From Thermoplasmatales archaeon SW_10_69_26 (GTDB lineage: Archaea; Thermoplasmatota; SW-10-69-26), in contig PXUB01000009.1 of assembly GCA_003009755.1 (NCBI GenBank), forward strand, positions 1 to 40,954: DNA of 40,954 bases. The letters run 5' to 3'. Positions 18,779 through 40,495 of this stretch are shown piece after piece (the stretch's first letter is position 1; each line of letters begins with the position of its first letter). Made by a program: the position numbers and the translations under genes. The notes below the pieces were generated by a model that searched no databases, was not told the DNA's origin, and was given only the letters and a program-made list of their open reading frames with translations.

Positions 18779-19040
18779 CGTGGCGCCTCTCGACGGCCGG
18801 TCTTCCCCGCCCTCTCCGGACGACGGGCGCTCGAGGGCTCGCTTGTCGTCCGGAGACTCAGACGGAGCCTCGCTGCCGCCTCGGATCCGTCGAGCTTCTC
18901 AGCCGCCGTTCGTGGCGCTTCTCGACGGCCGGTCTTCCCCGGGTCTCTCCGCACGACGGGCGCTCGAGGGCTCGCTTGTCGTGCGGAGACTCAGACGGAT
19001 CCTCGCTGCCGCCTCGGATCCGTCGAGCTTCTCAGCCGCC
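18779..19040. repeat. Two tandem copies (about 130 bp) of a palindromic element just 3' of tRNA-Val
   Basis: 18779-18907 and 18911-19040 are near-identical and contain nested inverted repeats. Confidence 0.9.
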
Positions 19041-20520: not shown

Positions 20521-20798
20521 CTCGGTGCGAACCTCATCGAGGTCTCTCGAAGGATCGCCCCCGTCACCGCGATAACGTGAAACGAAGTCCATCCCCTCCG
20601 CTCCTCCGCGGTCTTCCATCGAACCCCTTGTCAGCGACCGCTCTCGGCTCGCGCGGTACCTGCCCGACGGCCTCGGTGCGGACCGTCATCGAGGTCTCTC
20701 GAAGGATCGCCTCGTCACCGCGATAACGTGAAACGGAGTCCATCCCTCCCGCTCCTCCGCGGTCTTGCATCGAACCCCTTGTCAGTGACCGTTCTCGG
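20521..20798. repeat. Tandem repeat with 151-bp period downstream of tRNA-iMet
   Basis: 20521-20647 matches 20672-20798. A partial third unit (GCATCGA..CCTTGTCAGCG) starts at 20464. Confidence 0.85.
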
Positions 20799-31922: not shown

Positions 31923-32699
31923 GTGAGCACCCGGCTGGTCCCCCTGTTCGACGAGCGCGCCATGCTGGTGGAGACCAGCCCCGATCGCGTGCTGGTCGCC
32001 GGTGACCTGCACCTGGGCATGGAGCGCGAGCTTCGCAAGGACGGGGTGCACGGGATCGAGGAGACCGAGGGCCTGATCGCCCACCTGGGTGAGCTGGCCG
32101 CCGAGGAGCGCGTCGACCGCGTCCTGTTGCTCGGCGACGTCAAGCACACGCTGGGCGCCTGGGAGCCGGAGAAACGCGCCCTGAGCGGGCTGGCCGAGCT
32201 GCCGGTGCCCGTCGAGGTCGTGCCCGGCAACCACGACGGCGAGATCGACGAGATCGCTCCGTTCCTGAAGATCCACGACGCGCGCGGGTTGACGATCGGT
32301 GAGGTCGGGTTCCTGCACGGGCACACCTGGCCCAACGAGGAGATCACCGACGGCGGCCGCCTGGTGCTGTCCCACAACCACCCCCACGTGGCGTTGCGCG
32401 ACGGGCTGGGCCAGGTCTCCACCGAACCCTGCTGGGTGCGAGCCCCGATCCCCGACAGCGAGGCGAACCGCGAGCGCTACCCGGACGCTGACCTGCCCGG
32501 CGAGGCCGTGCTCGTCCCGGCGTTCAACCCGCTGTTGGGCGGGGTGGCGTTGAACCGACCCGAGGACGAGGCCTTGGGCCCGTTGTTGACGAACGACGTG
32601 ATCGATCTCGGTGCCGGCCGCGTGTACACCTTGGACGGGGTCGAGCTGGGCACGATCGCCGACCTGGAGGAGCGTCTCGATGACGACGACGTTCGATGA
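31923..32699 (+). CDS. Calcineurin-like metallophosphoesterase (Lhr-associated MPE type)
   Basis: GDLHLG, LGDVKH, PGNHD, HGH, HNHP, PAFN; overlaps the lhr start. Confidence 0.92.
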   Translation: MSTRLVPLFDERAMLVETSPDRVLVAGDLHLGMERELRKDGVHGIEETEGLIAHLGELAAEERVDRVLLLGDVKHTLGAWEPEKRALSGLAELPVPVEVVPGNHDGEIDEIAPFLKIHDARGLTIGEVGFLHGHTWPNEEITDGGRLVLSHNHPHVALRDGLGQVSTEPCWVRAPIPDSEANRERYPDADLPGEAVLVPAFNPLLGGVALNRPEDEALGPLLTNDVIDLGAGRVYTLDGVELGTIADLEERLDDDDVR

Positions 32700-35397
32700 G
32701 CTGCATCCCCGCCTCCAGGACCTGCTGGAGCGCGAGGGCTTCGAGGATCCGACCGAGGCCCAGGCCAAGGCCTTCGGCCCGATCCTCGACGGCCGACACA
32801 CCCTGCTGTTGGCCCCGACCGGCATGGGCAAGACCGAGGCCGCCGTCCTGCCGATCCTCGACGAGCTCGTCGAGCTGCCCGACGAGGAGCGCGAGGGCTT
32901 CGTGGCGATCTACGTCACGCCCTTGCGCGCCCTCAACCGCGACATCCTGACCCGGCTCGAGGACTGGTGCGAGTTCCTCGACGTCACGATCGGCGTCCGC
33001 CACGGCGACACCACCCAAGCCGAGCGCCGCCGCCAGTCGAAGAACCCGCCCGAGTTCCTGATCACGACGCCGGAGACCCTGCAGGCGATCTTCACCGGCT
33101 CGCGGCTGCGCGAGCACCTCGACGGGACGAAGTTCGTCGTCGTGGACGAGATCCACGAACTCGTCGGCAACGAGCGCGGCGCCCAGCTGGCCTGCGCGAT
33201 GGAGCGCATCACCCGCTACAGCGACGGGTTCCAGCGCGTGGGCTTGTCGGCGACCGTCGGCAACCCGGAGGAGACCGGCGAGTTCCTCGCCGGGGGCAAC
33301 CGGGACGCCGAGATCGTGCACGTGCCGGTCGGCAAGGACCTCGAGGTCACCGTCGAGGTGCCCGAGGTGACCGAGGAGGACCAGGTGCTCTCGGACAAGC
33401 TGTACTGCGGGGTGCGTGAAGCCTCGCTGGTGCGGCGGATCGTGGAGCTCGTCGAGGAGAACACGAGCACGCTCGTGTTCGTCAACACGCGCCGCATGGC
33501 CGAGGTGCTGGCCGCTCGCTTGGGGTTCTGGGACGTCGACGACATCCGCGTCCACCACGGATCCCTGCACAAGGAGGAGCGCGTGACCGTCGAGGAGGCG
33601 TTCAAGGCCGGCGAGATCTCCGGCCTGATCTGCACCTCGTCGATGGAGCTGGGCATCGACATTGGCTCGGCCGACTTCGTCGAGGGTCTCGTCATCGCGG
33701 AGGGCGCCCTGGCCGAGGACGTCGAGACAGCGCCGATCCCCGAGAACCCGCTCGACGTGCTCGCCAACCAGCTGGAGGCGATGAGCCTGGAAGGCGACGT
33801 CCCCCTCGACGAGGCCATGGGCACCCTGCGGCGGGCTCGTCCGTTCTGGTCGTTGTCCGACGAGACCGCCGTGGCCGTCATCGAGCAGATGGAGTCCACG
33901 CGCCTCGTCGAGCGCGATCGAGGCAACCTCACCCGCTTGGGTCGGGCGCGGTTGCACTTCGTCGAGAACCTCTCGATGATCCCGGATCAGACGACGTTCC
34001 TCGTCCGGGACGTCTCCTCGCGGCGCCCGATCGGCACCCTCGACGAGGCGTTCGTGATGAACTACGTCGAGCCGGGCGCCCTCGTCGTGCTGAAGGGCGA
34101 ACCCTGGCGCGTCGTCGAGGTCGAGGAACCCGACGAGGACGACGACGAGGACGAGGAGCCCGACATCCTCGTCGCGCCCGTCAAGGACCCGACCGGCGCC
34201 GTGCCGAGCTGGGTCGGCCAGGAGATCCCGGTCCCGTACGAGATCGCCCAGGGCGTCGGGCGGTTGCGCGGGGAGATCCACGAGCGCCTGCAAGCCGGCG
34301 AGGCCGCCGAGGAGGTTGCACGCGACGTGGCCGAGGAGCACCACACCGACGCGCACACGGCCTCGTTCCTCGTCGAGGGGCTGGCCGAGCAGGAGGAAGC
34401 TCTCATGCCGACCGACGAGATCGCGGTCCTCGAGACCGGCGAGGACGGCGTCGTGCTCAACGCCTGCCTGGGCCACAAAGCCAACGAGGCGCTGGGCACC
34501 GTGCTCAGCGGCCTGATCGCGGCCCGCATCGGGGAAAGCGTCGGCGTGGACGTCGACCCCTACCGCGTCATGCTCGAGCTGCCCCGCGGCACGCGACCCG
34601 GCATCGTTCAGACCGTGCTCGACGAGATCACCGGCTCGCCGCTGGACGGGCTGGTCGAGACGCTGATCACGAACCAACCCTTGCTGCGGTTCAAGCTCGT
34701 GCACGTCGCCCGCAAGTTCGGCGTGCTCGACAAGACGGCCTCCTCGATGAACATGAACGTGAAGCGGTTGCTCGACCGCTTCGAGGACACGCCCCTGCAC
34801 GAGGAGGCGGTGCGCGAGATCCTGCACGAGCGCATCGACGTGCCCCGCGCCGAAGCGTTCCTCCAGCAGCTCGAGGAGGGCACGGTCGCGCTCGAGAAAC
34901 AGCGGATGTCCCCGGTCGGCCAGCTCGGGTTCGAGGAGGCGGTGGACCTGGTGTCGCCCGGCCGCGCCACGGCCGCGATCCTGGAGGCCATGAGCGACCG
35001 CCTGGCGGACGAACCGGTCGTGCTGCACTGCATGCACTGCGGGGACTGGACCCGGCAGACGCGCGTCAAGCGCGTCCGCGAGCCGATCGATTGCCCCAAG
35101 TGTGGAGCCCAGGTCGTCACGATGGTGCGCCCGTGGATGGAGGAGCAGCTCAACGTTCTCTCCAAGGATGGCGAGCTGTCCCCCGACGAGCGGAAGACGC
35201 GCGAGAAGCTGGAGACGAAAGCCAGCCTGCTGTCCGCCCACGGCAAGGACGCGCTCGTCGCCCTCGTCTCGCGCGGCGTGGGCCCGACCACGGCCGGCCG
35301 CATCCTCGCCAAGCAGGTCGGCGACCGCGAGGGCCTGCTGCGGGAGCTGATGCAGGCCGAGATCGACTACGCCAGGACGCGGGAGTTCTGGGACTGA
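32680..35397 (+). CDS. lhr: Lhr-family SF2 helicase with C-terminal Cys4 zinc motif; motif VI region absent
   Basis: APTGMGKT, TPLRALNRD, TTPETL, DEIH, LSAT, FVNTR, HHGSL, TSSMELGIDIG; NPLDVLANQ, SMIPD, PSWVG; CMHC..CPKC. Confidence 0.93.
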   Translation: MTTTFDELHPRLQDLLEREGFEDPTEAQAKAFGPILDGRHTLLLAPTGMGKTEAAVLPILDELVELPDEEREGFVAIYVTPLRALNRDILTRLEDWCEFLDVTIGVRHGDTTQAERRRQSKNPPEFLITTPETLQAIFTGSRLREHLDGTKFVVVDEIHELVGNERGAQLACAMERITRYSDGFQRVGLSATVGNPEETGEFLAGGNRDAEIVHVPVGKDLEVTVEVPEVTEEDQVLSDKLYCGVREASLVRRIVELVEENTSTLVFVNTRRMAEVLAARLGFWDVDDIRVHHGSLHKEERVTVEEAFKAGEISGLICTSSMELGIDIGSADFVEGLVIAEGALAEDVETAPIPENPLDVLANQLEAMSLEGDVPLDEAMGTLRRARPFWSLSDETAVAVIEQMESTRLVERDRGNLTRLGRARLHFVENLSMIPDQTTFLVRDVSSRRPIGTLDEAFVMNYVEPGALVVLKGEPWRVVEVEEPDEDDDEDEEPDILVAPVKDPTGAVPSWVGQEIPVPYEIAQGVGRLRGEIHERLQAGEAAEEVARDVAEEHHTDAHTASFLVEGLAEQEEALMPTDEIAVLETGEDGVVLNACLGHKANEALGTVLSGLIAARIGESVGVDVDPYRVMLELPRGTRPGIVQTVLDEITGSPLDGLVETLITNQPLLRFKLVHVARKFGVLDKTASSMNMNVKRLLDRFEDTPLHEEAVREILHERIDVPRAEAFLQQLEEGTVALEKQRMSPVGQLGFEEAVDLVSPGRATAAILEAMSDRLADEPVVLHCMHCGDWTRQTRVKRVREPIDCPKCGAQVVTMVRPWMEEQLNVLSKDGELSPDERKTREKLETKASLLSAHGKDALVALVSRGVGPTTAGRILAKQVGDREGLLRELMQAEIDYARTREFWD

Positions 35398-35661
35398 ACA
35401 TTTCCTTTTTCAACGGAACCCCGGTGCCTGGCGACCCCCGGGAAACGAAGATCTTCGGAAAGGATGCGAGGGTTCGCCTGGCCCCAGGTACCCTCGCAAT
35501 CCGGCCGAAGCGGAGCTTCGGCCTCTCCGGAGACCGAACGGTGTCGCCGGTCTCCGGATGAAAACGGGGGCCGCCAGCGTTCCCAGACGCCGACGGAGGC
35601 GGCCCGGCGTCTCCGGAGAGGACGGATCTCCGATCCGTCCGCAACGCAGGCCCCATCGACG
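35381..35661 (+). repeat. 281-bp direct repeat copy A (last 17 bp of lhr plus structured trailer)
   Basis: Aligns without gaps to 39154-39434; 10 mismatches by hand count. Confidence 0.95.
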
Positions 35662-35859
35662 CTGGTCTGTGAGGCTGCTGTATCTTTGCGCAGGGCTATC
35701 GACGCCGGACCTGTTCCGACGCTGTCGCGGTGGGCCCGGAACGCAGCCCCGGATGGTCCCGAGCTGTCACCTCGCTGGATCTTCGCGCAAGGCTATCGCC
35801 GACGGCCCTGCTTCGACGTGGTTGCGACCGGCCCGCGGTCGATCGGAGGAGAAGAGACC

Positions 35860-35881
35860 CGGACGGGCTCTCGCCCGTCCG
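35860..35881 (-). terminator. Hairpin just downstream of the 35894-36364 gene
   Basis: GGACGGGC-TCTC-GCCCGTCC perfect stem followed on the minus strand by a pyrimidine run. Confidence 0.45.
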
Positions 35882-35893
35882 TTGGTGACCGGA

Positions 35894-36364
35894 TCACAGC
35901 GGGCCGTCGACGACCTCGATCGTGTCGTAGCCGAGGAAGATCGCGACCCGATCGGGGTTGTCGTCCTCGACCCGGGCGTCCTCGTTGCAAGGGTTGTGAT
36001 CGTACCCGACCGGGCCCGCCTGGGCGCCGATGCTGATGCAGTGCTCGAGCGGGATCTCCTCCTTGGGGGTCCAGTCCTCGTCGATGCTGATCTGCGGGTC
36101 GCACTGCCAGACAGCGACGGAGGCCGGGCCGACCTGTTGCTCGGGCACGATCACGTACCAGCAGTGGTGTTGGGTGGTGGCCAGGCCCTCGTCGGGGTTG
36201 GCCTCGACGACGACGCCCTGGCAGTTGTCGTACTTGGCCGTGGCCTCGTCCTCCTCGACGCCGACCTCCCAGCAGTGCTCGGCCGAGGACGTGGGCGCCA
36301 GTGCGATCATGGTCACGAGCGCGACGCAGAACGCGATGCCGTAGGTTGCAAGCTTGCGGTTCAT
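35894..36364 (-). CDS. Small secreted Cys-containing acidic protein
   Basis: Signal peptide ending SSA; six Cys in the mature part, HCW/HC repeats. Confidence 0.75.
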   Translation of the reverse strand: MNRKLATYGIAFCVALVTMIALAPTSSAEHCWEVGVEEDEATAKYDNCQGVVVEANPDEGLATTQHHCWYVIVPEQQVGPASVAVWQCDPQISIDEDWTPKEEIPLEHCISIGAQAGPVGYDHNPCNEDARVEDDNPDRVAIFLGYDTIEVVDGPL

Positions 36365-36464
36365 GGACTCTCCCTTCGAACGGGTGGAGCCGCTGACGCT
36401 GGCCGGTGGGGAAAAGGCTTGCTGGTCCGCAACGCGCGTGTTCGGGCCTGGGAGGGCCCTTCCT

Positions 36465-37176
36465 TCACGGTCGCCGGCTGACGGCTTGCCAGCTCGCGAT
36501 CGCTCCCGCTACCGCGAGGGCGCCGAGCGGGCTCGGGGCAGGCGCGGTTCGTTGTTCGTCGCCGCCGTCCGTCGATCCGTTCGGGTCTCCACTGGCTCGG
36601 GAGGGCTCGGCCTGCGTCGAAGGTTCGGTCTCCGCCGAGGGCTCGTCCTCCTCGCCGGGGTTGGGGGTCGCCTTCACGGGTTCGAGGCTGACCTGGGCCT
36701 GGGAGCCTTGCAGCGTGAAGGCGCCCGTCGTGTTCGCGAGCACGGTGACCTCGGCCCCGCCGGCAACCGCCCCCGCGGGTGATGGCCAGCTCGATCGTGG
36801 CCTCGTCGCGCTGGCTCGGCTCGGCCGGGTCGCGTCGGTGGGGGTGGTTGGTCGACGGGTGCTCGACCTCCGAGGGCGTCACGTTGGTCCTCGTCCCGTC
36901 GGGAGCCCCGACCGCCAACCGGGTCTCTGTGGTCTGCAGGGTGACGACGTAGCTCGGGTAGGTGTAGACGAGCTCGAGGTCGAGCTCGATCGGGGATCCG
37001 TTGGCCACCGTCAGGGATCCCTCTGGGGCCTCCAGAGAGGTCTCCGATCCCGGGAGGTGGAAGGCTTGCCCGCCGAGGCCGAGGCCGACCAAGCTCGCGA
37101 CGACCGCGAGCGCCATCCATCGCCCGACCGGCCGCGGGCTCGACCGCTCGGTCTGCGTCGATCTCCGTCGAGCCAT
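36465..37176 (-). pseudogene. Frameshifted surface protein with C-terminal sorting-signal-like tail
   Basis: Signal helix, frame change near 36778 (ELAI to PAGAVAGGAEV), acidic P/T/S linker, then PAPSPLGALAVAGAIA..RRP, resembling an archaeosortase-type tail. Confidence 0.65.
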
Positions 37177-37255
37177 CGATCCGCGAGGGGGCCTAGGACG
37201 GCAAGAAGACAGCGGCCACGGCGTTAACCTTCACTGGGCGCGGGTGTGGCGGGCG

Positions 37256-37372
37256 GGCCCGACGAGGAGCAGCCGCATCCTCGCCAAGAGCCACGGCCAC
37301 GAGGACGAGCTGTTGCGCGAGCTCTGCAGGTCCGAGATCGATTACGCCCGAACGCGCGATTTTTGGGATCGA
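37256..37372 (+). pseudogene. Diverged relic of the lhr 3' end
   Basis: GPTRSSRILAKSHGHEDELLRELCRSEIDYARTRDFWD versus native GPTTAGRILAKQVGDREGLLRELMQAEIDYARTREFWD (25/38 identical, no gaps); TGA replaced by CGA. Confidence 0.9.
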
Positions 37373-37414
37373 GCGCAGGGGTTGACGGCAACTCAGGATG
37401 AGGAGCCCGCTGAC

Positions 37415-38845
37415 TCAGGACCCCGTCTCGGCAAACGCGTAGGCGGTCGCCCACTCGTTCGTCGTCCAGGTGAGCATCGTGCGATCGTCGACGACCTCGA
37501 CATCGTAGTAGTCGTCGGCGGGTCCGCGGTTGGGGGACGGGTTGCTCTCGGTCGAGGTCTCGGGCGGCTTCAGCTCAGTCTCGGCCACAATGGTCAGGTT
37601 GGCCGGGTGCAGGACGACGTGGGCGACCGGGCGCTGGCCGCGATCGTACGGGGCGAAGGTGGCAGGCGAGTGCGTGAACAGGACGTGCACGTAGCCGTCG
37701 GCGCCGGCGCCCATCGCGTAGACGAAGGGGTTGACGAGCGGTTCGGGCCAGTCCTCGTTGACGGTCGCCTCCTCGATGACGTCGATCGAGACGTTCCACG
37801 TCTCCCCACCATCCGGGCTGTGGGCCATCTGGCCGCCATAGCAGGCGGAGACGATCACGTCGTCGATCGGGTTGGCCAGGAACGGGGAGTTGACCGGGCA
37901 GCCGCCCTCGACGGCGGCGAGCCGGTCGAGGCCGCCAGTCACGGGATCGAGCTCGTAGACGTCGAACTGACCGTCGTGCTCGCAGGCGACGAGGAGCCCG
38001 GCCGAGGTCGCTTCCACCGGGGAGATGCTGTCGCAGGACTCCAGCAGGCTCGCGTTGCCCGGCGTCCGCCACGTCTCACCGGCGTCCGTGCTCGTCGCGA
38101 TCGACGAGGTGCTGTTGGGCTGGTTGCGCCAGCTCGTGAACAGGATCCCGTTGACCGGCCCGGTAAGCCACTGGCGGTCGTGGTCGGTGTCCGCCGCCAG
38201 CAGGGTCTCGTGCTCCCACGAGTCGCCGAGGTCGGTGGATCGCATCGCGAAGACCCGGGTCTCGGACTGCTCCACGAAGCCAGGGTTGTCCGACGGTTCG
38301 CCGGGTGGCTCCTGGAAGGAGATCAGGCCCGTGAAGTGCAGCCGGCCCGCCTCGTCGAACACGAGCGAGGGGTCGGCGCCGCTGCGGTCCCGAGCCGGTA
38401 TCGTCTCGGGGACGTCGCCGAGCGGAATCGGGTTGCGCTCCCAGCTCTCGCCGGCGTCGGTCGTGACGTAGACGGCGAGTCCGACGTTCTCGGCGCCGCT
38501 GTTCTCCTCCTGGCCGCTGGGCTGGGCCTTGCCTTCCATGACACCGACGGCGATCGTGGCCGGATCGGTGGGGTGCACGGCCTGGAAGGGTTCACCCAGC
38601 GTGCGCAAGGGATCCTCGATCAGGCCCGCGCAAACGTCGCCCGTCGGTTGGAAGGTCGCGCCCTCGGGGCAGGGGTAGGAGACGTTCACCTCGGCCGGCA
38701 GCTCGGTGACGGGCGAGGCCTGGTTCTCCTCGCTGGCGTCCCCCGCCGGCCTAGAGCCTCCTGCATCGGAACCGACCTCGAGGCATCCCCCGATGAAGAC
38801 GACAGAGAGAAGAACGGCTGCCGTACACAGCCTCCGGATGTCCAT
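37415..38845 (-). CDS. BNR/Asp-box (sialidase-like) beta-propeller lipoprotein, paralog of 28049-29785
   Basis: Lipobox IGGC; Asp-boxes TTDAGESW, STDLGDSW, STDAGETW, SPDGGETW. Confidence 0.85.
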   Translation of the reverse strand: MDIRRLCTAAVLLSVVFIGGCLEVGSDAGGSRPAGDASEENQASPVTELPAEVNVSYPCPEGATFQPTGDVCAGLIEDPLRTLGEPFQAVHPTDPATIAVGVMEGKAQPSGQEENSGAENVGLAVYVTTDAGESWERNPIPLGDVPETIPARDRSGADPSLVFDEAGRLHFTGLISFQEPPGEPSDNPGFVEQSETRVFAMRSTDLGDSWEHETLLAADTDHDRQWLTGPVNGILFTSWRNQPNSTSSIATSTDAGETWRTPGNASLLESCDSISPVEATSAGLLVACEHDGQFDVYELDPVTGGLDRLAAVEGGCPVNSPFLANPIDDVIVSACYGGQMAHSPDGGETWNVSIDVIEEATVNEDWPEPLVNPFVYAMGAGADGYVHVLFTHSPATFAPYDRGQRPVAHVVLHPANLTIVAETELKPPETSTESNPSPNRGPADDYYDVEVVDDRTMLTWTTNEWATAYAFAETGS

Positions 38846-38996
38846 CGCTGAAATGGTGAATCTCACCGAAGAAAAACATTGGGTTTCCATCGTTGGCGGG
38901 TGCGGGGAATCGAGCAGCGACAGAAAGGCCCCTACCGCCGCCAAACGGGGCTGTAAGGACACCCGAATTCTTTCCTTGTCGACCTTTGCCCCTTCG

Positions 38997-39170
38997 ATGG
39001 CTCTCCCGCGTTCCGATCTCTGCTTCATCGCGTTCCTTGCTTTGGCGGCCATAGTTATCGGAATAGGAAGCGGGGGAGTGATCGCTTCGAGCCACAGCGA
39101 TTCGCCAGCGGTCGTGCCAGTTGACGTCCGGTCCCATCCGCCCCTAGAGGAGAGGGAGTTCTGGGACTGA
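38997..39170 (+). pseudogene. 5' fragment of a secreted-protein gene fused in frame to the lhr terminal codons (REFWD*)
   Basis: MALPRSDLCFIAFLALAAIVIGIG...PPLEE|REFWD*; the junction coincides with the start of repeat copy B. Confidence 0.6.
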
Positions 39171-39434
39171 ACATCTCCTTTTTCAACGGGGCCCTGGTGC
39201 GTGGCGACCCCCGGGAAACGAAGATCTTCGGAAAGGATGCGAGGGTTCGCCTGGCCCCAGGAACCCTCGCAATCCGCCCGAAGCGGAGCTTCGGCCTCTC
39301 CGGAGACCGAACGGTTTCGCCGGTCTCCGGAAGAAAACGGGGGCCGCCAGCGTTCGCAGACGCCGACGGAGGCGGCCCGGCGTCTCCGGAGAGGACGGAT
39401 CTCCGATCCGTCCGCAACGCAGGCCCCATCGACG
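39154..39434 (+). repeat. 281-bp direct repeat copy B
   Basis: Offset 3773 bp from copy A. Confidence 0.95.
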
Positions 39435-39553
39435 ATGACCTTCGACGCTGCTCTACTTCCCGCACGACGACCGTCGCTTGACGGGCTCCTGCGCGAAGGT
39501 GCGCGATGCGGCGATGGTGGGGCCGGGTTCGCGGTAACGGTCGGTGATCCGAT

Positions 39554-40495
39554 CTACCCTTCTTCGCAGGTCAACGTCGGGTCCATCCCGTTCGCGGGAA
39601 GCCCGCCAGGGTGGGGTGGGGGTACCGCGAAGGAAGCCAGACCCAAGGGTCCCTGGCTCTGTGCGGATAGGGATAGCGCAAAGCCGTCGTCCATCTGCCT
39701 CGTCAGGCAGAGGATCCCCGGCGCTTTCGCATCCGACCAGGACCGGCAGACGTCCTCTGTCGATTCGACGCAGTAGGTGAGGTCGGCGGACGAGACGACG
39801 ATCTGGGTCGTCGAGACCCAGTTCGCATAGCCCTGCAGCTCCCCCCGGGCATCCTCGATGATCGTGGGCCCGAACCGGCTTGTCGCAGCGATCTCGGCGT
39901 CGAGATCCGCCAGGTCCCACGCGAGAGGGGATCGATCGAGGCTCCTCGTCTCCACCTCGGCCGCTCCGGTCCAGTTCAGCCAGACGGTCAGGTCCCGGTC
40001 CTCGGCAAGGCCCAATCCGAAGACCAAGGCCGGATCCGCGGGACCGCGGTCGAGCGTGAAATGGCGCTCCCCCTCCTCTGTTCCATTGAGGAGCTCCGGA
40101 CTCACCGGCGAGCTCGAGAACGACTGCCTGGCCAGGCCCCCTCTGAGGGTCGGTGAGTTCACGGAGTCCATCGCCACCGCGAGCGGAACGTCGGTCCGCG
40201 TTCCGTTCGGGTAGACGAACCCCACGACCTCCGGATCAGGGCCATCGTTGGTGAGAGTGTACGCGAGCGAGAACTTAGCGTCCACGGCCTCCTCGACGCT
40301 GACCACCATCGTCGGGCGATCGCCGTCGAGGTGGACCGCGAGAGAACGGTTCTCCTCCAGGGAGGAGGAAGCGTTTTCACGGACTTCCGAAGAGGAGGGG
40401 TCGACGTGGCCTCCGCTGGCGACGATGATCCCTCCCACAATCAAGGTCATCGCCACCACCAAGGGGAGACCCAGCCGACGATCAACGACAGCCAT
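39554..40495 (-). CDS. Hypothetical membrane-anchored/secreted protein
   Basis: N-terminal TM helix; acidic beta-rich body; start overlaps the stop of the upstream gene (TGATG). Confidence 0.7.
   Translation of the reverse strand: MAVVDRRLGLPLVVAMTLIVGGIIVASGGHVDPSSSEVRENASSSLEENRSLAVHLDGDRPTMVVSVEEAVDAKFSLAYTLTNDGPDPEVVGFVYPNGTRTDVPLAVAMDSVNSPTLRGGLARQSFSSSPVSPELLNGTEEGERHFTLDRGPADPALVFGLGLAEDRDLTVWLNWTGAAEVETRSLDRSPLAWDLADLDAEIAATSRFGPTIIEDARGELQGYANWVSTTQIVVSSADLTYCVESTEDVCRSWSDAKAPGILCLTRQMDDGFALSLSAQSQGPLGLASFAVPPPHPGGLPANGMDPTLTCEEG

What the first reader, a model, noticed from the sequence alone, without database searches (positions are those of the whole stretch)
35398..35661. Densely folded 264-nt non-coding element after the lhr stop, retained in two copies
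Seen: a long-range stem CTGGCGACCCCCG/CGGGGGCCGCCAG encloses hairpins GCGAGGGT..ACCCTCGC, GGCCGAAGC/GCTTCGGCC and TCCGGAGACC/GGTCTCCGGA. It is followed by AGACGCCG/CGGCGTCT and GGACGGATC/GATCCGTCC. In copy B the ends also pair (GGGGCC..GTGCG with CGCA..GGCCCC), giving terminal inverted repeats. I do not recognise it as tRNA, SRP or RNase P RNA. Inference: an undescribed structured RNA, a MITE/REP-like element, or a folded ssDNA recombination site comparable to attC.
Basis: partly seen in the sequence, partly recalled or inferred. Interest (0 to 1): 0.7.

Follow-up and report, generated by a model that had tools for sequence, protein, structure and literature searches.

The report
Stop-codon-adjacent hairpin repeat family
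The folded stretch behind the helicase gene is an enlarged copy of a repeated hairpin element that this salt-loving archaeon and some relatives carry directly behind the stop codons of ordinary genes, probably as a transcription-stop or message-end module like bacterial REP elements.

Summary
Every stem named is in the sequence, and the 264 nt fold far better than shuffles as RNA on both strands and as DNA. A 95% identical copy lies 3.77 kb downstream.

It is not a two-copy oddity. It is the largest form of a modular repeat family: 23 heads and 28 tails in this 2.8-Mb archaeal genome. The size classes are about 162, 222 and 322 nt.

The basic unit starts at or within a few bases of a stop codon. 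It holds a T-rich box (T5C), a long GC-rich hairpin (P0/P1) with an A-rich loop, and a conserved tail. The finding's extra hairpins are modules inserted into the loops of that hairpin.

A covariance model finds 12-14 copies in each of three genomes from two sister genera. It finds none in a third genus or in 15 other genomes of the class.

P0/P1 covary massively. The T-box is complementary to the first A-box, also with covariation.

One copy sits behind the archease stop codon in three genera. Most other positions are lineage-specific.

No Rfam family, transposase or RNA data were found.

Best reading: a REP/MITE-like archaeal repeat serving as a terminator or 3'-end module. The mechanism is inferred.

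The parts
32611..35397 (+). lhr helicase gene. Its native stop codon (35395-35397) abuts the element.
   Evidence: Pfam DEAD, Helicase_C, WH_Lhr and DEAD_assoc. The C-terminus ...YARTREFWD* is conserved in 5 of 5 relatives that lack the element there.
35398..35722 (+). Copy A of the repeat element (322-nt class): head, P0/P1 hairpin with two sets of inserted hairpins, and tail.
   Evidence: nhmmer with head and tail models; covariance model R1.
35401..35411 (+). T-box, with a T5C run at 35406-35411.
   Evidence: Sequence. It is conserved in 58 aligned copies. T5C is the strong terminator motif of Haloferax volcanii (PMC7237163, passages read).
35414..35420 (+). P0 5' arm. It is degenerate in copy A and intact (GGGGCC) in copy B at 39188-39193.
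   Evidence: Alignments A2 and A4. P0 is 94.3% paired, and 7 of 7 pairs show changes on both sides.
35428..35440 (+).
   Evidence: Fold. P1 is 92.6% paired, and 13 of 14 pairs show changes on both sides.
35441..35465 (+). A-rich loop start (A-box1 region), with the small palindrome at 35447-35456. Positions 35459-35464 are complementary to T-box positions 35403-35408.
   Evidence: Sequence. T-box/A-box1 complementarity is tested.
35466..35558 (+). Insert set 1 in the hairpin loop: three perfect hairpins at 35466-35497, 35503-35523 and 35526-35558.
   Evidence: It is absent from the ten 162-nt copies, and two of its hairpins are present in the 222-nt class. Contigs of two runs carry the copy-B locus without it. 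Its modules also occur alone elsewhere in the genome.
35559..35564 (+). A-box2, the end of the A-rich loop.
   Evidence: Alignments.
35565..35577 (+). P1 3' arm.
35585..35640 (+). Insert set 2 in the internal loop between P1 and P0: hairpins at 35585-35612 and 35620-35640.
   Evidence: It is present only in the 322-nt class and in C29:31615. The second hairpin recurs alone at 7 other places.
35649..35654 (+). P0 3' arm (GGCCCC).
35655..35722 (+). Tail module, with two GATCT-type motifs that can pair with each other.
   Evidence: Tail model, 28 hits. The tail helix is 84.5% paired.
35736..35830 (+). Second, head-less tail module in tandem.
   Evidence: nhmmer tail hit at 35736-35819, E 3.8e-10.
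39154..39170 (+). 17-nt copy of the lhr 3' end, stop codon included, attached to copy B.
   Evidence: Alignment of A and B.
39171..39494 (+). Copy B of the element (321 nt). It is antisense to both flanking genes (37415-39052 and 39554-40495, both on the - strand). Its tail is only family-level similar to the tail of copy A.

Best explanation
The 264 nt are the core of one enlarged copy of a lineage-specific, modular, extragenic palindromic repeat, comparable to bacterial REP/BIME elements or to a MITE. The host is an uncultured halophilic archaeon with an acidic proteome and 69% G+C, recovered from halite. The basic unit of about 160 nt has five parts, in this order. First comes a stop codon or a stop-like triplet. 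Then comes a T-rich box (T5C). Then comes a roughly 20-bp GC-rich hairpin (P0/P1) whose sequence is free but whose pairing is kept. The hairpin has an A-rich loop whose first part is the inverted copy of the T-box. Last, in this genome, comes a conserved tail. Copies A and B carry extra perfect hairpins, themselves repeated modules, inserted only into unpaired loops of that hairpin. This part is shown. The inferred mechanism is as follows. The T-box ends transcription of the upstream gene. The T-runs that the A-rich loop presents on the opposite strand stop incoming antisense or convergent transcription. The stable hairpin blocks 3' exonucleases or RNA polymerase on read-through transcripts. 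The element would thus act as a portable two-way terminator and 3'-end stabiliser, in a genome that has almost no other T-runs. The family spreads and is homogenised by an unknown route, either transposition or gene conversion, and it lands with striking precision at stop codons.
For: Family and modularity:
- nhmmer with the four full copies gives 47 hits.
- There are 23 heads and 28 tails, forming 18 head-tail pairs in three size classes: 10 of about 162 nt, 4 of about 222 nt and 4 of about 322 nt.

Structure:
- RNAalifold on the 10 basic copies predicts 32 pairs, 11 with compensatory change.
- On 58 copies from four genomes, 86.9% of cells pair against 68.3% in shuffles. 36 of 43 pairs change on both sides, no shuffle of 500 reaches this, and slid controls pair at 40-53%.
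- The T-box:A-box1 helix was not part of the model, yet 8 of its 11 pairs covary.
- In my own permutation test, the longest perfect helix with the copy's own partner averages 7.93 against 6.26 with another copy's partner. 0 of 5000 permutations reach this, also when permuting within genomes.

Position:
- 14 of 23 heads abut a stop codon that closes an ORF of at least 140 codons.
- By a strict criterion the figure is 8 of 23, against 1.2% of 20000 random non-genic positions (P 1.7e-10).
- In the relatives, 12 of 38 copies do so, plus 2 more cut at contig ends.
- The upstream genes are housekeeping: Lhr, RtcB, archease, YbaK-like, PheRS alpha, NMD3, S27a, cyclophilin and PepX. No transposase lies in the flanks.

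Distribution:
- The model finds 35 copies in G000, 14 in G002, 13 in G003 and 12 in G005. It finds none in G001 or G004 and none in 15 other genomes of the class.

Age and turnover:
- An element follows the archease stop in G000, G002, G003 and G005 but not in G001 or G004. Among those four copies, 12 of 21 P0/P1 pairs show compensatory change.
- Six other G000 positions are empty in all five relatives.
- Contigs of two runs lack insert set 1 at the copy-B locus.

Terminator reading:
- T5 or A5 runs occur at only 299 positions in the genome. 25 of these lie in elements, which make up 0.32% of the bases. Only 42 of 1931 genes have a T5 run within 150 nt of their stop codon.
- In Haloferax volcanii, a T stretch terminated 95% of transcripts, AGATC 11-27% and a hairpin 59% (PMC7237163, passages).
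- E. coli REPs act as terminators and stabilisers (bioRxiv 10.64898/2026.03.23.713779, abstract). Many of them lie within 15 nt of stop codons (PMC12306157, passages).
Against: - No transcript data exist for this organism, so termination and stabilisation are inferred from motifs alone.
- The T-run precedes the hairpin. The hairpin is therefore not part of a classical intrinsic terminator, and its role is unclear if the T-box terminates efficiently.
- A pure model of two independent terminators does not explain why the T-box and A-box1 covary even where both lose their T-run (for example L077 and L095).
- G.T and A.C mismatches are balanced: 6 against 7 in P0 and 28 against 18 in P1. This fits a DNA-level palindrome as well as an RNA.
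- A basic copy folds only modestly better than shuffles: z -2.03, with 5 of 200 shuffles as good.
- 9 of 23 heads are not at a stop codon.
- By rough gene calls, 6 of the 24 listed copies that have an upstream gene call face an upstream gene on the opposite strand.
- No mobilising enzyme was found. Y1 transposase and TnpB gave no match in the 95%-complete assembly. No target-site duplication is visible.
Confidence: 0.55

Rival explanations
1. A purely selfish mobile repeat with no host function. P0/P1 are its terminal inverted repeats, or a hairpin that an unknown enzyme needs in single-stranded DNA. The T- and A-boxes are a second inverted repeat used in the reaction. Stop-codon adjacency reflects the insertion target together with purifying selection against insertions elsewhere.
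For: Most positions are lineage-specific: 6 of 7 tested G000 sites are empty in the relatives. Paralogues within a genome resemble each other more than the archease-linked orthologues do. G.T and A.C mismatches are balanced, as expected for DNA. Hairpin modules are inserted in a nested way and are polymorphic between strains. Elements lie at contig ends, as repeats do. The stop-like triplet looks like part of the element's 5' end, because it is mutated to TGG, TGC or CGG in copies that are not at gene ends.
Against: No transposase of family PF01797 or PF07282 was found. Pfam named no transposase or integrase among 38 flanking ORFs. No target duplication is visible. The stem sequence is hypervariable, whereas transposase-bound repeats are usually conserved in sequence. 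An element has been kept behind archease in three genera whose archease proteins are only 48-56% identical to that of G000. Insertions are tolerated only in loops.
Confidence: 0.25
2. A cis-acting 3'-UTR RNA that tunes translation termination or message fate, as REPs within 15 nt of stop codons do in E. coli. The helix between the T-box and A-box1 starts within a few bases of the stop codon. It may alternate with P0/P1, which would make it a conformational switch coupled to the terminating ribosome.
For: The two helices have a pseudoknot topology, with only 2-4 nt between the T-box and P0. They are therefore probably mutually exclusive; this is my inference from pseudoknot geometry. In the commonest G000 subtype the complementarity reaches the last base of the stop codon (sequences). 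Phe stands at -3 in 10 of 14 stop-adjacent ORFs, against a 2.2% background. Its TTC codon is complementary to the first bases after the stop codon. Many host genes belong to translation or tRNA metabolism. The REP precedent is in PMC12306157 (passages).
Against: It requires read-through of a T5C run. There is no strand signal from G.U pairs. Copies also occur antisense to genes and away from stop codons. The Phe/TTC feature is weak in the relatives: by my reading of the C-termini, only archease and one other gene show it among the 12 full-length upstream proteins, plus the cut archease of G005.
Confidence: 0.1
3. An independently transcribed small structured RNA gene family, with the T-rich box acting as its promoter.
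For: Strong covariation, no match to any known RNA family, and an AT-rich box about 25 nt before P1.
Against: The box contains no A, unlike the CTTAAA-type box before rtcB in the sister genus. A genome carries 12 to 35 diverged copies. The stems are hypervariable. Variable insertions are tolerated. There is no conserved single-stranded sequence apart from A-runs.
Confidence: 0.05
4. A folded single-stranded DNA recombination site comparable to integron attC, marking mobile gene cassettes.
For: It lies immediately after ORF stop codons, its structure is conserved while its sequence varies, and it folds well as DNA.
Against: There are no arrays. The associated genes are core housekeeping genes whose orthologues exist in relatives without the element. 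No RYYYAAC or GTTRRRY core motifs sit at the stem base (my reading of the alignment). Copies A and B flank genes on the opposite strand.
Confidence: 0.03

Closest known systems
Bacterial REP/BIME elements (REPINs) with their RAYT transposases
   Same: Both are multi-copy, GC-rich extragenic palindromes at gene 3' ends, often within a few bases of stop codons. Both have species-specific sequences with conserved pairing. Both combine into composite clusters. Both have proposed terminator, mRNA-stabiliser and translation-modulating roles (PMC12306157, passages; bioRxiv 10.64898/2026.03.23.713779, abstract).
   Different: The host is archaeal. The unit is about 160 nt with a hairpin of about 20 bp and a 30-nt A-rich loop, rather than a 20-40-nt palindrome. 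It is preceded by a T5C box that is complementary to the loop. It has no GTAG or CGTC tag. No Y1 (RAYT) gene was found. Copies number tens, not hundreds.
MITEs, including nested or composite MITEs
   Same: Both are small, non-coding and repeated, with inverted repeats, lineage-specific positions, nested insertions and strain polymorphism.
   Different: No target-site duplication is visible, and no parent insertion sequence shares its ends. The 'inverted repeats' vary freely in sequence with compensation. Orientation is tied to the upstream gene, and the start coincides with the stop codon.
Haloarchaeal T-stretch terminators (Haloferax volcanii Term-seq, PMC7237163)
   Same: A T5C run lies shortly after the stop codon. 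GATC-containing motifs and hairpins lie nearby.
   Different: Here the signals are packaged in a repeated, covarying unit present at only about 1% of genes, and function is untested.
Integron attC sites
   Same: Both sit directly after an ORF and have a conserved fold with variable sequence.
   Different: There are no arrays, no core sites and no cassette behaviour of the associated genes.

Membership tests
Any Rfam family | A covariance-model match at or near the gathering score | tested here: not met
   The whole window at gathering thresholds gave only two tRNAs. Region 35300-35950 at E up to 10 gave 5 matches of 12-17 bits against gathering scores of 64-80.
tRNA / tmRNA | ARAGORN detection | tested here: not met
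   Only tRNA-Val and tRNA-Met at 19-20 kb.
REP / REPIN | A short (20-40 nt) imperfect palindrome with a conserved GTAG or CGTC tag at one end | tested here: not met
   The hairpin spans 75-90 nt. GTAG appears only where a TAG stop codon happens to follow a G. The tag definition comes from the abstract of PMC3733652, as shown in the listing.
REP / REPIN | A cognate RAYT (Y1 transposase) gene in the genome | tested here: not met
   PF01797 gave 0 matches in G000, which is 95% complete, and the controls were positive.
REP / REPIN | Many extragenic copies, preferentially at gene 3' ends | tested here: met
   23 heads and 28 tails. 14 of 23 heads are at stop codons. The random control gives 1.2%.
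MITE | Terminal inverted repeats of conserved sequence | tested here: inconclusive
   P0/P1 are inverted repeats, but their sequence is hypervariable with compensation.
MITE | Target-site duplication flanking the element | tested here: not met
   No direct repeat at the two ends in the aligned copies (my reading). No empty site from a close strain was available to settle this.
MITE | A parent insertion sequence with the same ends | tested here: not met
   No head and tail lie 0.6-3 kb apart on one contig. Flanking ORFs are housekeeping genes. Insertion sequences may be missing from this assembly.
IS200/IS605-derived elements (PATE, omega RNA) | TnpA (Y1) or TnpB in the genome, and the element at the 3' end of tnpB | tested here: not met
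   PF01797 and PF07282 each gave 0 matches.
Integron attC | R''/R' core sites, cassette arrays and an integron integrase | tested here: not met
   No core motifs at the stem base. Copies are dispersed singly behind core genes. The integrase was not searched for.
Archaeal T-stretch terminator | A run of at least 5 T shortly downstream of the stop codon that ends transcripts | tested here: inconclusive
   The T5C motif is present. Termination cannot be tested here, because no RNA holder is listed.
Bacterial-type intrinsic terminator | A GC-rich hairpin followed by a U-run | tested here: not met
   The T-run precedes the hairpin on the + strand, and an A-run follows it on the - strand.

The most novel reading that the evidence does not exclude
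The element is a structure-conserved unit that homes to the end of open reading frames. It would be inserted so that its first triplet coincides with the host gene's stop codon, possibly guided by a small helix between the TTC codon at -3 and the first bases of the element. Its two mutually exclusive helices (T-box:A-box1 versus P0/P1) would form a switch linking the terminating ribosome to transcription termination or message decay. That would be a new kind of mobile, domesticated 3'-end regulator in archaea, maintained since the ancestor of the family and lost as a whole in one genus.
Probability: 0.15. Interest if true: 0.75.

Novelty: new variant of a known kind. Interest (0 to 1): 0.5.

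Why it matters
Extragenic palindromic repeats are well studied in bacteria and barely described in archaea. This family comes with unusually clean comparative evidence: dozens of copies in four genomes, near-complete compensation in a 20-bp stem, and a second covarying helix. It also has a precise relation to stop codons and to the strongest known haloarchaeal terminator motif, in a genome otherwise almost free of T-runs. If the terminator or stabiliser role holds, it would show that archaea, like bacteria, recruit mobile hairpin repeats to shape transcript 3' ends. It would also give a compact two-way terminator part for halophile genetics. If the stop-codon targeting is mechanistic, it points to an unknown insertion or conversion process.

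Tried and rejected
- Known RNA families. Rfam at gathering and at permissive thresholds and ARAGORN place nothing in the region.
- Coding potential. ORFs overlap the region, but the copies differ by 1-3-nt indels.
- Link to IS200/IS605, TnpB or RAYT. No PF07282 or PF01797 match.
- Wider distribution by exact degenerate motifs. One genome-contig hit lies in a coding region of a bacterial MAG. Five metagenome hits have 52-60% G+C and match only the motif. Viral contigs gave 0 and 4 hits, none scoring with the model. All are chance matches.
- BLAST of the 300 nt in 40 relatives found only single-hairpin fragments in 2 genomes.
- Expression. No RNA holder is listed for the stretch, so nothing can be said about expression.
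- Strand of folding from G.T versus A.C counts: inconclusive.
- Empty sites in related strains. The contigs laid are short and stop at the repeat. One ends at 35396, right at the lhr stop codon. Only the insert-1 polymorphism could be read. Other joints have under 30 letters on one side and were ignored.
- Bulge-helix-bulge splicing motif. I considered this because rtcB and archease are hosts. The P0/P1 junction has a 4-nt/4-nt internal loop, 2 bp and a 1-nt bulge, which is not a BHB (my reading).
- Promoter reading of the T-box: rejected, as argued under rivals.
- Preference for convergent gene pairs. By rough gene calls, 11 listed copies have a downstream gene on the opposite strand, 12 have one on the same strand and 2 have no call, so there is no preference.
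- Searches for a prior description found REP and MITE literature but nothing matching this element. The terms were haloarchaea with MITE, intergenic repeat and stem-loop; archaea with REP-like and intergenic; and archaea with bidirectional terminator.

Full report
**What is in the window**

Window 35398-35661 begins one base after the stop codon of an lhr helicase gene. The gene is 32611-35397 and matches Pfam DEAD, Helicase_C, WH_Lhr and DEAD_assoc.

Folding against 200 dinucleotide shuffles:

| Molecule and strand | z-score | Shuffles as good |
|---|---|---|
| RNA, + strand | -5.05 | 0 of 200 |
| RNA, - strand | -6.77 | 0 of 200 |
| DNA, + strand | -5.60 | 0 of 200 |

A second copy lies at 39154-39452 and is 95% identical. 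The high-identity block is 35381-35661 against 39154-39434. It therefore starts 17 nt inside lhr and ends exactly at the finding's end. Beyond it the two copies are only loosely similar. Rfam and ARAGORN find nothing in the region.

**The host organism**

The genome has 49 contigs, 2.82 Mb, 69% G+C and 95% completeness. It is archaeal:
- its initiator tRNA has an A1:U72 pair;
- it encodes NMD3, S27a, archease and RtcB.

Its proteome is acidic, with D+E 15.9% and K 1.6%. The stretch is held by halite metagenome runs. Its class has only 21 genomes in the collection.

**It is a repeat family, not a pair**

- BLAST of the 300 nt against the host genome gave 20 matches, 5 of them long.
- nhmmer built from the four full copies gave 47 hits.
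- Separate head and tail models converged on 23 heads and 28 tails.
- These form 18 head-tail pairs. The pairs fall in three size classes: 10 of 159-163 nt, 4 of 217-224 nt and 4 of 320-324 nt.
- 5 heads have no tail and 10 tails have no head. Several of these lie at contig ends.

**Architecture of the unit**

The alignment of all 18 pairs shows a basic unit with these parts, in order:
1. a stop codon or a stop-like triplet;
2. 2-5 variable bases;
3. a T-box (typically ATTTTTCTTTC);
4. the P0 5' arm (GGGGCC);
5. the P1 5' arm, 12-14 nt of variable GC-rich sequence;
6. an A-rich loop of about 30 nt (A-box1, a middle piece, A-box2);
7. the P1 3' arm;
8. the P0 3' arm (GGCCCC);
9. a tail of about 70 nt with two GATCT-type motifs.

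The finding's extra hairpins are two insert sets. The first lies in the hairpin loop (35466-35558). The second lies in the internal loop between P1 and P0 (35585-35640). The 222-nt class carries part of the first set, and C29:31615 carries only the second. All insertions lie in unpaired parts of the P0/P1 hairpin. The inserted hairpins also occur alone or inside other tandem repeats elsewhere in the genome.

**Covariation**

RNAalifold on the 10 basic copies predicts 32 pairs, 11 with compensatory change. A covariance model built from them (R1) found these numbers of copies at E up to 0.01:

| Genome | Genus | Copies |
|---|---|---|
| G000 (host) | g1 | 35 |
| G002 | g3 | 14 |
| G003 | g4 | 13 |
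| G005 | g4 | 12 |
| G001 | g2 | 0 |
| G004 | g2 | 0 |

It found none in 15 genomes of five other families of the class at E up to 1e-4. The relatives' copies are 115-130 nt long and mostly lack the tail.

On 58 aligned copies, 20 from G000 and 38 from the relatives, one search gave the following:
- 86.9% of cells pair, against 68.3% in column shuffles.
- 36 of 43 pairs show changes on both sides.
- No shuffle of 500 reaches the observed values.
- Partners slid by 1-3 columns pair at only 40-53%.
- P0 is 94.3% paired, and 7 of 7 pairs covary.
- P1 is 92.6% paired, and 13 of 14 pairs covary.

The alignment was fitted to this structure, which favours it. However, the sequences themselves show whole G-runs exchanged for C-runs.

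A helix that was not in the model also covaries. The T-box is complementary to A-box1: 75.5% of cells pair and 8 of 11 pairs change on both sides. In my own test, the longest perfect helix between a copy's T-box and its own loop averages 7.93. With another copy's loop it averages 6.26. No permutation of 5000 reaches the observed value, even when permuting within genomes.

The two helices have a pseudoknot topology, with only 2-4 nt between the T-box and P0. I infer that they exclude each other.

G.T and A.C mismatches are balanced: 6 against 7 in P0 and 28 against 18 in P1. Neither the folding strand nor RNA versus DNA can therefore be decided. A basic copy on its own folds only modestly better than shuffles (z -2.03). 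The evidence for structure is thus the covariation, not the energy.

**Relation to genes**

- 14 of 23 heads in G000 have a stop codon 5-8 nt before model position 1 that closes an ORF of at least 140 codons. One of the 14 is copy B, with its copied lhr tail.
- By a strict criterion (ORF third-position G+C of at least 0.80), 8 of 23 heads qualify. Only 1.2% of 20000 random non-genic positions do (P 1.7e-10).
- In the relatives, 12 of 38 copies qualify, plus 2 more cut by contig ends.
- The upstream genes in G000 are Lhr, RtcB, archease, a YbaK-like editing protein, PheRS alpha, NMD3, ribosomal protein S27a, cyclophilin and a PepX-like peptidase. Three further ORFs have no Pfam match.
- The 38 flanking ORFs I scanned are ordinary housekeeping genes, with no transposase or integrase among those that Pfam names.
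- The C-termini are native. Lhr ends in ...FW[DE]* in all five relatives, where no element follows. Archease ends in ...FD[IV]* with or without the element.

In copies that are not at gene ends, the corresponding triplet is a one-base variant of a stop codon (TGG, TGC or CGG). The stop-like triplet therefore looks like part of the element's conserved 5' end.

One feature of G000 is unexplained. Phe stands at position -3 in 10 of the 14 stop-adjacent ORFs, or 9 of 13 without copy B. The background is 2.2% of 1931 gene ends. One search computed P = 6e-12 for at least 9 of 15, which is conservative because the true denominators are smaller. The TTC codon is complementary to the first bases after the stop codon, with GTTC/GAAC changing to CTTC/GAAG.

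**Age and turnover**

An element follows the archease stop codon in G000, G002, G003 and G005. In G001 and G004 a short promoter-like spacer leads straight into rtcB instead. Among the four archease-linked copies, 15 of 21 P0/P1 pairs vary, 12 with compensatory change, and 16 pair in all four.

An RtcB tree rooted with other families gives (g4,(g3,(g1,g2))). The g1+g2 pairing has support of 99/98. The genus without elements is therefore nested among those that have them. The simplest reading is presence in the family's ancestor and loss or decay in g2, although repeated gain cannot be excluded.

A second shared site is mdh. The element is directly after the stop codon in G003 and 211 nt after it in G000. 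It was not found there in G001, G002 or G004, and in G005 the gene is cut by a contig end.

By contrast, the sites behind lhr, rtcB, nmd3, pheS, the YbaK-like gene and cyclophilin carry an element in none of the five relatives. Some of those loci are cut by contig ends, so this means 'not found'.

Copies within a genome share subtype features, such as the tail and the wording of the T-box, that the orthologous archease copies do not share. This indicates homogenisation by re-insertion or gene conversion.

Contigs of two runs (X3 and X5, one contig each, 37 letters on the shorter side) join 35462 to 39333 with three letters between. That is the copy-B locus without the 97-nt insert set 1. Together with copy B's diverged tail and its 17 copied lhr bases, this suggests that the core of B was overwritten from A in the window's strain. 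This is an inference.

**Likely function**

T5 or A5 runs occur at only 299 positions in the genome. 25 of these lie in elements, which make up 0.32% of the bases. Only 42 of 1931 genes have a T5 run within 150 nt after their stop codon.

In Haloferax volcanii, a T stretch terminated 95% of transcripts in a reporter assay, the AGATC motif 11-27% and a hairpin 59% (PMC7237163, passages read). The element carries three relevant features:
- T5C right after the stop codon on the + strand;
- T-runs, as the reverse complement of the A-boxes, inside the loop on the - strand;
- GATC-type motifs in its tail and loop.

I therefore read it as a portable two-way terminator and 3'-end module whose hairpin stabilises or blocks read-through transcripts. 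E. coli REPs do something similar. They have been described as terminator-stabilisers (bioRxiv 10.64898/2026.03.23.713779, abstract). Many of them lie within 15 nt of stop codons, where they lower translation (PMC12306157, passages).

This step is inferred, because no RNA run holds the stretch. The model also leaves three things unexplained:
- why the T-box and A-box1 covary even where both lose their T-run;
- why the hairpin follows rather than precedes the T-run;
- what moves the element.

**Comparison with known kinds**

The element behaves like a REP/BIME element or a MITE but fails their membership tests:
- no GTAG or CGTC tag;
- no RAYT or TnpB gene;
- no target duplication and no parent insertion sequence;
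- stems conserved in pairing rather than in sequence.

It is not attC-like in its context. No homologue was found by exact-motif scans of one genome per species, of JGI metagenomes or of viral contigs. Three literature searches found no description of it. I class it as a new variant of a known kind.

Noticed in passing
window 37211-37369 (+): A fragment of a second lhr 3' end: 54 codons, 57% amino-acid identity to the resident gene's C-terminus, with the stop codon replaced by CGG. It lies between two minus-strand genes, 46 nt from the stop codon of the BNR-repeat gene (37415-39052). With copy B's 17-nt lhr tail, the lhr terminus is therefore present three times within 4 kb. This suggests insertion or duplication at the lhr 3' end.
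   Followed up: partly
window 35381-35397 and 39154-39170: The copy A/B identity block starts 17 nt inside lhr but ends inside the element, before the tail. The left junction lies in non-homologous DNA and the right junction in homologous DNA. This looks like a one-sided conversion or template switch rather than clean transposition.
   Followed up: partly
G000 stop-adjacent copies (for example C43:42129, C32:56114, C29:47287, window 35381-35400): Phe (TTC) stands at position -3 before the stop codon in 10 of 14 ORFs, against a 2.2% genome background. Its codon is complementary to the first bases after the stop codon, and GTTC/GAAC covaries with CTTC/GAAG. The C-termini of Lhr and archease are native, so this looks like a target preference or a small helix enclosing the stop codon. 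It is much weaker in the relatives.
   Followed up: partly
window 35861-35880: A separate perfect 8-bp hairpin followed on the minus strand by a pyrimidine run. It lies 14 nt after the stop codon of the convergent gene 35894-36364 and may be that gene's own 3'-end signal.
   Followed up: no
window 18805-19040 and 20559-20798: Two pairs of tandem direct repeats (103 nt at 94% identity and 89 nt at 92%) flank the tRNA-Val and initiator tRNA-Met genes. They are unrelated in sequence to the element.
   Followed up: no
G000 C32:67290-67470 and C34:10050-10230: The hairpin of insert set 2 (GGACGGATC type) also sits between direct repeats of 43-60 nt in other intergenic tandem arrays. This genome has a wider stock of modular hairpin repeats.
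   Followed up: no
L029 (G002), directly after its lhr stop codon: No element scores there, but about 130 nt downstream lies a stretch resembling the G000 tail (two GATCT-type motifs, about 20 nt apart start to start). The tail may be an older, separate module.
   Followed up: no
G000 C32:55430-57422: Two tandem cyclophilin paralogues are separated by one head and three tail modules (56114-56521).
   Followed up: no
whole genome G000: Runs of five T or five A occur at only 299 positions in 2.8 Mb, and only 2.2% of genes have T5 within 150 nt after the stop codon. Most genes must therefore end transcription by other signals.
   Followed up: partly
G003 C2:5114-7700 and G005 C132:3991-6041, against G001 C10:44735-46701: Archease and rtcB are adjacent in three genera. 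The elements, one in G003 and two in tandem in G005, lie between them. In the element-free genus about 70-100 nt with a CTTAAA-type box separate the two genes. In G000 the two genes are 13 kb apart, and each has its own element.
   Followed up: partly
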